Part shown: positions 19,986-20,431 of the stretch, piece after piece
Position numbering within the stretch: position 1 is the stretch's first letter
Layout of the letters: every line of letters starts with the position of its first letter
Source: Escherichia coli
Lineage (GTDB): Bacteria; Pseudomonadota; Gammaproteobacteria; Enterobacterales; Enterobacteriaceae
Length of the DNA: 64,000 nucleotides
Direction: 5' to 3' (one strand)
Assembly: GCF_003018235.1 (NCBI RefSeq)
Contig: NZ_CP027437.1
Made by a program: the position numbers and the translations under genes
Notes under the pieces: model-generated
Databases searched by the model: none
Told to the model about the DNA's origin: nothing
The model's input: the letters and a program-made list of their open reading frames with translations, nothing else

Positions 19986-20226
19986 GCTCCACACCCTTAA
20001 CGTTGATGGTTGTTACCTGTTCCGCTTCGGCTATCTCCCGTTCGGTCAGCGTGGCAAAGTTTGCCGCCGCTGTGGTCATGAATGCGCTTATCAGTTCGGG
20101 ATGTGCTTTCGCGTATCCTTCTCCCGTGTTGCGGTCTATCGTTCTGATTGCCACCTTTAAGGCGTGCTCTGTCATGTCTAATGCGCGATATTTTGGCGCT
20201 GCCTTATCTCTGGTTTTTCTGGTCAT
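19966..20226 (-). CDS. Hypothetical protein (86 aa)
   Basis: ORF immediately downstream of iteron array and overlapping P2-like int start. Confidence 0.4.
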   Translation of the reverse strand: MTRKTRDKAAPKYRALDMTEHALKVAIRTIDRNTGEGYAKAHPELISAFMTTAAANFATLTEREIAEAEQVTTINVKGVEHGDKEV

Positions 20227-20431
20227 TCCTCACCACTCCTCACTTTTACTCCTCACTTTTTGTTATTCCTCGCCTGCTCCTCACCTGTTTTTTTTGCTTC
20301 TGTAATGCGTTGTTTTGCAATGTATTTTTTATTCCTCACTTTTTGACCTATATACAGGTGAGAAAGTGAGGAGTAGCGCTGATTTTTTGTTAAATTACTC
20401 GCTACCCTCACTTTTACTCCTCACTTTTTAC
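20226..20431. repeat. Iteron array (at least 7 copies of CCTCAC(T)TTT / CTCCTCACTTTT in both orientations) around an AT-rich spacer; putative replication origin
   Basis: Copies at about 20228, 20237, 20249, 20277, 20332, 20358 (inverted), 20405, 20417; located immediately 3' of the RepA-like gene. Confidence 0.7.

What the first reader, a model, noticed from the sequence alone, without database searches (positions are those of the whole stretch)
20226..20431. Iteron array immediately 3' of the RepA-like helicase gene: putative island replication origin
At least seven copies of CCTCAC(T)TTT (several as the 12-mer CTCCTCACTTTT, one inverted as GTGAGAAAGTGAGGAG) lie in two clusters around an AT-rich spacer (TTTTTTTTGCTTCTGTAATGCGTTGTTTTGCAATGTATTTTTTATT). 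Iteron clusters flanking an AT-rich unwinding element next to the replication initiator gene is the classical layout of satellite and plasmid origins. It implies the island replicates autonomously after excision.
Basis: partly seen in the sequence, partly recalled or inferred. Interest (0 to 1): 0.7.

Follow-up and report, generated by a model that had tools for sequence, protein, structure and literature searches.

The report
Replication origin of a phage satellite island
The repeat cluster is real and is very probably the replication origin of a 10-kb E. coli phage-inducible chromosomal island, a layout already described for this family, so it is a well-supported but ordinary finding.

Summary
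Observation confirmed. The 201-bp gap (20227-20427) between the RepA helicase gene and the next gene holds 8 CCTCAC cores, one CCTCGC and two inverted copies. About 0.06 cores are expected by chance, and all six AAGTGAGG octamers of the 64-kb window lie here.

Interpretation supported. The window is E. coli, and the element is a 10.1-kb phage-inducible chromosomal island (PICI) at the published yejM-luxR attachment site. The gap occupies the same gene-order slot as the experimentally validated origin of EcCICFT073. The published reference island EcCI11128 has a 95%-identical RepA with GTGGGG iterons in the same layout.

Over 100 relatives keep the architecture:
- direct iterons after the stop codon;
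- an inverted iteron pair around a TGTATATA dyad at +71 nt;
- an AT-rich stretch;
- a second direct cluster.

Iteron base 4 (GTGNG) is predicted perfectly by RepA residue 442: Asn gives A, His or Lys gives G, Ser or Gly gives C, in 139 of 139 arrays. This residue sits at the N-terminal edge of the recognition helix of a predicted C-terminal winged-helix domain.

RepA therefore almost certainly reads these repeats. Replication itself was not tested. This is a new specificity variant of a known kind of origin, of modest interest.

The parts
20428..21828 (-). repA: 466-aa initiator-helicase. It has an N-terminal 125-aa module, an SF4/RecA-fold helicase (Pfam AAA_25, RSF1010 RepA-like) and a C-terminal winged helix (residues ~400-466).
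20503..20505 (-). Codon of Asn442 (AAT), the residue that predicts iteron base 4. It lies at the N-terminal edge of recognition helix H443-452.
   Evidence: Read. Covariation. Helix limits.
20227..20430 (-). Putative island origin (ori): the whole RepA-to-next-gene gap plus the stop codon.
   Evidence: Same gene-order slot as the validated EcCICFT073 ori.
20403..20428 (-). Iteron group 1: two direct copies (AAAAGTGAGGAGT, AAAAGTGAGGGTA on the gene strand). The first overlaps the stop codon by one base.
20331..20375 (.). Central inverted-repeat unit. Inverted iterons (20363-20374 and the degenerate 20358-20363) face one direct iteron (20331-20343) across the conserved dyad TGTATATA (20349-20356).
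   Evidence: Inverted repeat I1, 23-nt arms, 83% complementary. DNA hairpin -10.2 kcal/mol, z = -5.85. The dyad motif is present at +70/71 nt from the stop in 73 of 132 unique relatives, against 2.8% of shuffles. Maps.
20288..20333 (.). AT-rich stretch, the candidate unwinding element.
   Evidence: GC 0.30. Lowest duplex stability of the locus at 20311-20354. An AT-rich stretch sits at the same place in relatives, although its sequence diverges strongly.
20226..20287 (-). Iteron group 2: five direct copies with cores at 20279, 20268 (CCTCGC), 20251, 20238 and 20228. The last overlaps the ribosome-binding site and start codon of the next gene.
19966..20226 (-). 86-aa gene of unknown function (PHROG 1231). 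It follows the ori in all E. coli PICIs examined.
   Evidence: It is 88% identical to the EcCICFT073 homologue although the iterons differ completely, so it is unlikely to be the iteron reader.
15392..25520 (-). The whole 10.1-kb PICI. attR is at 15392-15418 and attL at 25494-25520, next to tRNA-Pro (25650-25726) and yejM. Genes in order: int 24190-25449, AlpA-like 23478-23684, DUF4222 21825-22121, repA, ori, 86-aa gene, second recombinase 18981-19994, perC 18709-18984, ClpP-protease/capsid fusion 16170-18065.
   Evidence: The att core matches Table S1 of PMC6092414.

Best explanation
The array is the replication origin of a Gram-negative phage-inducible chromosomal island.

Proposed mechanism:
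1. After helper-phage induction and excision, the island's RepA binds the GTGAGG iterons. RepA is a self-loading SF4 (DnaB/RSF1010-RepA-like) hexameric helicase with a C-terminal winged-helix domain. Binding is through the recognition helix, residues 443-452, and Asn442 reads the A at iteron position 4.
2. The flanking direct-repeat clusters concentrate RepA.
3. The converging iterons around the TGTATATA dyad and the adjacent AT-rich stretch are where the duplex is opened and helicase rings are loaded. The island then replicates independently of DnaA.

Shown here: the repeats, their conserved layout, their exclusive linkage to RepA-family genes, the winged-helix fold, and the residue-base covariation.

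Inferred: physical binding, the melting site, double-hexamer loading and actual replication.
For: - Repeat density is far above chance.
- The element is a PICI at a published PICI att site.
- Published PICI origins have exactly this position and layout, and the EcCICFT073 pri-rep-ori segment replicates a plasmid (PMC6092414). SaPI Reps bind such iterons through a C-terminal winged helix (PMC9371898).
- The gap occupies the same slot as the EcCICFT073 ori, with the initiator and iterons exchanged as one unit.
- Reference PICI EcCI11128 has a 95%-identical RepA with N442H, and every iteron is GTGGGG instead of GTGAGG.
- Among 139 loci with arrays, residue 442 predicts iteron base 4 without exception: N to A 63, H to G 44, K to G 26, S to C 5, G to C 1.
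- About 13 residue changes and 11 base changes occur on the CTD tree.
- L060 and L037 are identical over the last 45 residues except N/H, yet differ in all iterons.
- An unbiased mutual-information scan of 330 residues against the iteron positions ranks N442 with position 4 first (normalised MI 1.0) and Y448 with position 6 second (0.79). Y448 lies inside the predicted recognition helix and N442 immediately precedes it.
- The CTD model is a winged helix most like Orc/Cdc6/MCM WH domains.
- A 16,971-bp circular Klebsiella record deposited as a plasmid is a satellite with this replicon type and the same ori layout (S residue, GTGCGG iterons).
- No DnaA box, IHF site or GATC is present.
Against: - No experiment on this RepA type was found in the literature searched. 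Only the EcCICFT073 (P4-type primase/SF3) allele was tested.
- The iterons lie within 280 bp of codon 442, so co-inheritance through recombination of a linked block could inflate the covariation. The near-isogenic pairs and the chemically sensible pairing (Asn-A, His/Lys-G) argue against pure hitch-hiking.
- The AT-rich stretch is only moderately unstable. It ranks tenth among the least stable 30-mers of the island.
- This RepA lacks a recognisable primase domain, so priming must come from elsewhere.
Confidence: 0.85

Rival explanations
1. RepA does bind the repeats, but the array is not the start site of replication. It would instead be a regulatory or copy-control site. Examples are a roadblock or attenuator that tunes read-through from repA into the downstream 86-aa/recombinase/perC/capsid genes, or a handcuffing/titration site, with the true origin elsewhere.
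For: - No terminator or promoter consensus lies between repA and the next gene, so transcription probably reads through the array.
- The last iteron overlaps the ribosome-binding site of the next gene.
- Iterons in plasmids commonly have both roles (established knowledge).
Against: - All AAGTGAGG copies of the window are in this one locus, so there is no second cluster that could serve as the real origin.
- The homologous slot in EcCICFT073 is needed for replication.
- The conserved dyad plus AT-rich stretch is an origin-like feature rather than an operator-like one.
Confidence: 0.08
2. The repeats are operator or promoter elements bound by a different island protein (the 86-aa protein, DUF4222, AlpA or PerC) or by a helper-phage protein. 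They would control the downstream operon or packaging (a pac-like site), with RepA not involved.
For: - The position is intergenic, upstream of a gene block.
- PICIs do carry packaging signals and regulators (PMC6092414, PMC6739421 listed).
Against: - The 86-aa protein is 88% identical in EcCICFT073, where the iterons are entirely different (TCTACC).
- The strongest covariation in a scan of the last 330 RepA residues is with one residue at the edge of RepA's own predicted recognition helix.
- There is no sigma-70-like promoter hit.
- The array follows RepA-family genes across very different gene contexts, including Xenorhabdus, Serratia, Kosakonia and an Oceanospirillaceae MAG.
Confidence: 0.04
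3. The inverted repeat with flanking direct repeats is a recombination site (core plus arm-type sites) for the second tyrosine recombinase encoded just downstream (18981-19994).
For: - A near-perfect palindrome lies at 20331-20375.
- A 337-aa tyrosine recombinase gene lies 230 bp away.
Against: Relatives with the same array and dyad have an SSB gene, or other genes, in place of this recombinase. Examples are O157:H7, RM8082, EcCI11128 and the Klebsiella element.
Confidence: 0.01
4. The repeats are part of an unrecognised coding sequence or of a structured RNA.
For: - Mechanical ORFs cross the region: 20253-20411 on the minus strand (52 aa) and 20148-20369 on the plus strand (73 aa).
- Sub-threshold hairpin-type Rfam hits occur.
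Against: - No reading frame stays open in relatives. The median longest open run is 29-39 of 66 codons, and at most 15% of loci are open in any frame.
- The Rfam hits are eukaryotic miRNA models far below the gathering score, and they reflect only the palindrome.
- Substitutions are concerted across the repeat copies while the spacers diverge freely.
Confidence: 0.01

Closest known systems
Origins of Gram-negative PICIs (EcCICFT073 and the other E. coli reference islands, Fillol-Salom et al. 2018, PMC6092414)
   Same: - The host element type is the same: int, alpA, unidirectional genes, about 10 kb, and the yejM-luxR att site listed in their Table S1.
- The slot is the same, immediately 3' of the initiator and 5' of the conserved 86-aa gene.
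- The layout is the same: iteron sets around an AT-rich stretch.
- Reference island EcCI11128 has a 95%-identical RepA and the same array layout.
   Different: - The validated EcCICFT073 initiator is a P4-type primase/SF3 helicase with TCTACC iterons. Only its first 125 residues are shared with the window's RepA.
- The window carries the N442/GTGAGG specificity variant, whereas EcCI11128 carries H442/GTGGGG.
- Only 2 of 5426 complete E. coli genomes hold this ori at 95% identity or more.
SaPI origins and Rep/PriRep self-loading helicases (Ubeda et al. 2007; Qiao et al. 2022, PMC9371898)
   Same: - Iterons lie directly downstream of rep, with an AT-rich centre and oppositely oriented iterons.
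- The initiator is itself the helicase and reads the iterons through a C-terminal winged helix.
- Specificity is set by matching between the CTD and the iterons.
   Different: - SaPI Reps are SF3/AAA+ helicases, while this RepA is an SF4/RecA-fold helicase.
- The host is Gram-positive.
- The iteron sequences are unrelated.
Satellite phage P4 alpha protein with ori and crr
   Same: - Both are enterobacterial satellites.
- Both have a multifunctional initiator with a C-terminal DNA-binding domain that recognises short repeated sites (own knowledge; discussed in PMC6092414).
   Different: - P4 alpha is a primase plus SF3 helicase.
- P4 needs two separated repeat regions (ori and crr). Here all iterons sit in one 200-bp locus.
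IncQ plasmid RSF1010 replication (RepA helicase, RepC initiator, RepB' primase)
   Same: The helicase core is the closest solved structure (1g8y). The origin is made of iterons plus an AT-rich stretch.
   Different: - In RSF1010 a separate protein (RepC) binds 20-bp iterons, and the helicase has no DNA-binding winged helix (own knowledge).
- Here the winged helix is fused to the helicase and the iterons have a 6-9 nt core at 10-13 nt spacing.
T7 gp4-type primase-helicases
   Same: Longer relatives of this RepA (about 700 aa, for example P0121 and the Xenorhabdus loci) carry a primase zinc ribbon, a Toprim domain and AAA_25.
   Different: - gp4 has no origin-binding winged helix and no iterons.
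- The window protein lacks the zinc-ribbon and Toprim part.

Membership tests
PICI replication origin (SaPI / Gram-negative PICI type) | Lies immediately 3' of the island's rep or pri-rep gene. | tested here: met
   The first iteron overlaps the RepA stop codon (20428-20430).
PICI replication origin (SaPI / Gram-negative PICI type) | Several short iterons in sets on both sides of an AT-rich stretch. | tested here: met
   There are 5 direct copies on one side and 3 direct plus 2 inverted copies on the other. The AT-rich stretch is 20288-20333, GC 0.30.
PICI replication origin (SaPI / Gram-negative PICI type) | Iterons of opposite orientation flank the melting region (stated for SaPIs in PMC9371898). 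| tested here: inconclusive
   An inverted pair converges on the TGTATATA dyad next to the AT-rich stretch. The two outer clusters, however, point the same way.
PICI replication origin (SaPI / Gram-negative PICI type) | The host element is a PICI: integrase, AlpA-type regulator, unidirectional genes, about 10 kb, and a PICI-specific att site. | tested here: met
   The att core and the yejM-luxR site match Table S1.
PICI replication origin (SaPI / Gram-negative PICI type) | The cognate initiator is a helicase with a DNA-binding (winged-helix) C-terminal domain specific for the iterons. | tested here: met
   The fold was predicted. Specificity is inferred from perfect residue-base covariation. 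Physical binding was not tested.
PICI replication origin (SaPI / Gram-negative PICI type) | The rep-ori segment supports autonomous replication. | not testable with these tools
   The only support is indirect: the EcCICFT073 result and a circular 17-kb Klebsiella record with this replicon type.
Iteron plasmids with Rep_3-type initiators (pSC101, R6K, F, P1) | Initiator of the Rep_3/RepA winged-helix family, without helicase activity. | tested here: not met
   Pfam finds only AAA_25. The core is an SF4 helicase.
Iteron plasmids with Rep_3-type initiators (pSC101, R6K, F, P1) | Iterons of 17-22 bp at about 22-bp spacing, together with DnaA boxes and often IHF sites. | tested here: not met
   The core is 6-9 nt and the dominant spacings are 10 and 13 nt. 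There is no DnaA box, IHF consensus or GATC.
P4-type replicon (alpha, ori, crr) | Primase plus SF3 helicase initiator (TIGR01613 / D5_N type). | tested here: not met
   EcCICFT073 Pri-Rep matches TIGR01613, but the window RepA does not.
P4-type replicon (alpha, ori, crr) | A second, distant cis-acting repeat region (crr). | tested here: not met
   All six AAGTGAGG copies lie in 20238-20426, and there is no other cluster in the 64 kb.
IncQ (RSF1010) replicon | A separate iteron-binding initiator (RepC) and a separate primase (RepB') beside the RepA helicase. | tested here: not met
   No such genes are in the island. The DNA-binding domain is fused to the helicase.

The most novel reading that the evidence does not exclude
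One residue at the N-terminal edge of the winged-helix recognition helix of an SF4 self-loading helicase acts as a simple read-out of one iteron base: Asn for A, His or Lys for G, Ser or Gly for C. It has switched many times, with all roughly 10 iteron copies changing in concert. This would create mutually orthogonal replicon specificities among otherwise near-identical satellites, and it would be a natural, re-programmable initiator-origin code. It would also show that the PICI origin layout is used by helicases of two unrelated superfamilies, SF3 and SF4.
Probability: 0.5. Interest if true: 0.5.

Novelty: new member of a known kind. Interest (0 to 1): 0.3.

Why it matters
The finding places the island firmly among replicating phage satellites and pins down its origin to about 200 bp, which helps annotation and any engineering of PICI-based delivery vectors.

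The one fresh point is the residue-to-base rule (N442/A, H/G, K/G, S or G/C). It gives a directly testable model of how these satellites diversify replicon specificity. It also shows that the PICI origin plan works with an SF4 helicase as well as with SF3 ones. None of this overturns current understanding.

Tried and rejected
- Promoter and terminator consensus scan of 19900-20700: no hits.
- Rfam scan of the island at E up to 1: only the tRNA, plus chance hairpin hits to eukaryotic miRNA models over the palindrome.
- Coding potential of the gap: no frame is conserved open.
- DnaA box, IHF consensus and GATC searches: none found.
- Sequence search of the C-terminal domain profile against PDB: nothing significant. 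A fold search was needed to identify it.
- NCBIfam for RepA, the 86-aa protein and DUF4222: no family assignment.
- Recombination-site idea for the neighbouring second integrase: rejected, because relatives keep the array without that gene.
- Search for a second, crr-like iteron cluster: none.
- Test of whether satellites sharing a genome always carry different specificities: a look at same-genome IMG/VR contigs showed both same-type and different-type pairs, so there is no clear rule. This was not pursued.
- The figure with the published iteron sequences (Fig. 2a of PMC6092414) is not held as text. I could not check whether the GTGAGG or GTGGGG iterons are printed there.

Full report
**1. What is in the sequence**

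The window region 20227-20427 is the gap between two minus-strand genes:
- a 466-aa ORF at 20428-21828;
- an 86-aa ORF at 19966-20226.

CCTCACTTTT occurs five times exactly, with one inverted 1-mismatch copy.

The 6-nt core CCTCAC/GTGAGG occurs 8 times in 216 bp. From the rest of the window 0.058 copies are expected (Poisson P about 3e-15). No other hexamer reaches that density anywhere in the 64 kb. All six AAGTGAGG octamers of the window are in this gap.

In gene orientation the order is as follows:
1. The stop codon.
2. Two direct iterons (AAAAGTGAGGAGT and AAAAGTGAGGGTA).
3. A spacer of about 26 nt.
4. Two inverted copies, one of them degenerate.
5. The dyad TGTATATA (20349-20356).
6. One direct iteron.
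7. A 46-nt AT-rich stretch (20288-20333).
8. Five direct copies. The last overlaps the ribosome-binding site and ATG of the next gene.

GC falls to 0.30 in 20290-20349. The least stable duplex of the locus is 20311-20354. The central palindrome can form a DNA hairpin of -10.2 kcal/mol, z = -5.85.

The refinement is that there are three repeat groups and a central dyad.

**2. Context**

The window is E. coli chromosome. A near-identical island (99.9% over the repA-ori segment) sits in strain SCU-111 between narP/yejO and tRNA-Pro/yejM.

The island spans about 15392-25520. It is bounded by TTTTAGTTATACGTTT(A/G)GTTATACGG repeats. These match the att core listed for the 'yejM-luxR' group of E. coli PICIs in Table S1 of Fillol-Salom et al. 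2018.

Its gene content, all on one strand, is typical of Gram-negative PICIs:
- integrase;
- AlpA-like regulator;
- Icd-like protein;
- DUF4222 protein;
- RepA;
- the gap;
- the 86-aa protein (PHROG 1231);
- a second tyrosine recombinase;
- PerC;
- a ClpP-protease/major-capsid fusion.

**3. What is known**

That paper states that the region immediately 3' of the initiator gene is the origin in PICIs. [quoted passage not shown] It also reports that the EcCICFT073 pri-rep-ori segment maintains a temperature-sensitive plasmid only when both rep and ori are intact.

For SaPIs, Rep is a self-loading helicase. Its C-terminal winged helix recognises 5-6-nt iterons placed directly after the rep ORF (PMC9371898).

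**4. Comparison with the validated origin**

In CFT073 the order is DUF4222, Pri-Rep (584 aa), a 288-bp gap, an 85-aa gene, SSB and PerC. The 85-aa protein is 88% identical to the window's 86-aa protein.

The initiator is different. It is a P4-type primase (TIGR01613) that shares only its first 125 residues with the window RepA, at 66% identity. The iterons are also different: TCTACC/GGTAGA.

Initiator and iterons have therefore been exchanged together within a conserved frame. This is what is expected of a cognate initiator-origin pair.

The reference island EcCI11128, at the same att site, encodes a RepA 95% identical to the window's. It has the same array layout, but with GTGGGG in place of GTGAGG.

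**5. The initiator**

- Pfam finds AAA_25 at residues 147-315.
- A family profile hits the RSF1010 RepA helicase.
- The AlphaFold2 model has mean pLDDT 91.9, and its core superposes on RSF1010 RepA with TM 0.74.
- Residues 405-466 form helix, helix, helix and a beta hairpin.
- Longer relatives carry a primase zinc ribbon and a Toprim domain in front of the helicase, like T7 gp4. The window protein does not.

**6. Comparative test**

I collected 160 loci encoding relatives: 80 from IMG/VR and 80 from one-genome-per-species bacteria. I extracted the DNA after each stop codon.

Most relatives have an iteron array there (139 loci by a criterion of at least four cores). They include E. coli, Xenorhabdus, Serratia, Pectobacterium, Yersinia, Kosakonia, Hafnia, Morganella, Photorhabdus and an Oceanospirillaceae MAG.

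The layout is the same in all of them. The central TGTATATA-like dyad lies at +70/71 nt in 73 of 132 unique sequences, against 2.8% of shuffles. The spacers diverge freely while the iteron positions are kept.

The iteron core is GTGNG. Base N is predicted without exception by the residue aligned with Asn442, in the motif K-X-[FLM]-x-R-W-L:

| Residue X | Base N | Loci |
|---|---|---|
| Asn | A | 63 of 63 |
| His | G | 44 of 44 |
| Lys | G | 26 of 26 |
| Ser | C | 5 of 5 |
| Gly | C | 1 of 1 |

Further points:
- On a tree of the C-terminal domain with that residue masked, parsimony needs about 13 residue changes and 11 base changes.
- Loci L060 and L037 are identical over the last 45 residues except N/H (AAC versus CAC), yet differ at base 4 of their iterons.
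- An unbiased mutual-information scan of the last 330 residues against all variable iteron positions ranks N442 with position 4 first (normalised MI 1.0). Y448 with position 6 comes second (0.79).
- Y448 lies inside predicted recognition helix 443-452, and N442 immediately precedes it.
- The pairings fit the usual side-chain/base preferences: Asn with adenine, His or Lys with guanine (general knowledge).

Caveat: codon 442 is only about 75 nt upstream of the first iteron. Linked inheritance therefore contributes to the association.

**7. Rivals**

- No reading frame is conserved across the gap.
- There are no sigma-70 promoter or intrinsic terminator matches.
- No Rfam family is found beyond chance hairpin hits.
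- There is no DnaA box, IHF consensus or GATC.
- The neighbouring second recombinase is absent from relatives that keep the array.
- There is no second iteron cluster that could be a P4-like crr.

The main remaining alternative is that RepA binds here for control rather than for initiation.

**8. Indirect support for autonomous replication**

A 16,971-bp circular Klebsiella pneumoniae record was deposited as plasmid pKp_Goe_795-4. It is a satellite-like element with integrase, a DNA-binding regulator, capsid and terminase genes. It carries a RepA relative (X = Ser) followed by GTGCGG iterons in the same layout.

**9. Distribution**

An ori-like gap next to a RepA-family gene is present in 647 of 5426 complete E. 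coli genomes. Only 2 genomes carry this variant at 95% identity or more. Most copies are 60-80% identical, which is less conserved than the adjacent gene.

**10. Verdict**

The feature is real and is best explained as the PICI origin read by its own RepA. It belongs to a published kind of origin. A 95%-identical initiator with the sister specificity is in the published reference set.

What is new here is limited to two points. First, this is the GTGAGG/Asn442 specificity variant. Second, there is a computational case for a one-residue, one-base recognition rule in an SF4-type self-loading helicase.

Interest is modest.

Noticed in passing
window 18981-19994 (minus strand): A second, 337-aa tyrosine recombinase gene sits in the replication module where related PICIs (EcCICFT073, O157:H7, RM8082) carry an SSB gene. 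Its start overlaps the end of the 86-aa gene by 29 nt. Its role and target site are unknown.
   Followed up: partly
window 16170-18065 (minus strand): A 631-aa ClpP-like prohead protease/major capsid fusion lies in a 10-kb island that has no portal or terminase genes. A published survey (PMC10111431) names this gene type ('C:CLP_protease:110') as a landing site for helper-embedded PICIs.
   Followed up: no
window 21454-21828 (RepA residues 1-125): The N-terminal 125-aa module of RepA is shared (66% aa identity, about 79% nt) with initiators that otherwise have unrelated P4-type primase/SF3, DUF927 or DUF5906 bodies. It is therefore a mobile module of unknown function common to different PICI initiator alleles.
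   Followed up: partly
L166 (CP018459.1, K. pneumoniae 'plasmid' pKp_Goe_795-4, 16,971 bp circular): This record, deposited as a plasmid, looks like a circularised capsid-encoding phage satellite. It carries integrase, a regulator, a RepA relative with an iteron ori, and capsid, adaptor and terminase genes. A 10,790-bp E. coli 'plasmid' (NZ_CP148328.1) with DUF4222 plus a primase-like gene may be another such case.
   Followed up: partly
L046, L049, L051 (IMG/VR E. coli contigs), 200 nt after the RepA stop: These loci encode Asn at position 442 and have mostly GTGAGG iterons. Their second cluster, however, contains GTGGGG copies. This is a hybrid origin that may record recombination between specificity types.
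   Followed up: no
window 25461-25520: attL holds the direct att core (TTTTTAGTTATACGTTTAGTTATACGG) followed at once by an inverted copy of the same doubled TAGTTATACG motif. These are probably integrase arm or core binding sites.
   Followed up: no
window 22412-23473 (minus strand): A 353-aa mechanical ORF spans the region that RefSeq annotates in the near-identical island of SCU-111 as several small genes on both strands (Icd-like, YlcI/YnfO, hypothetical). It is probably not a real gene. No P4-type immunity RNA (C4/isrK) was found by Rfam at E up to 1.
   Followed up: partly
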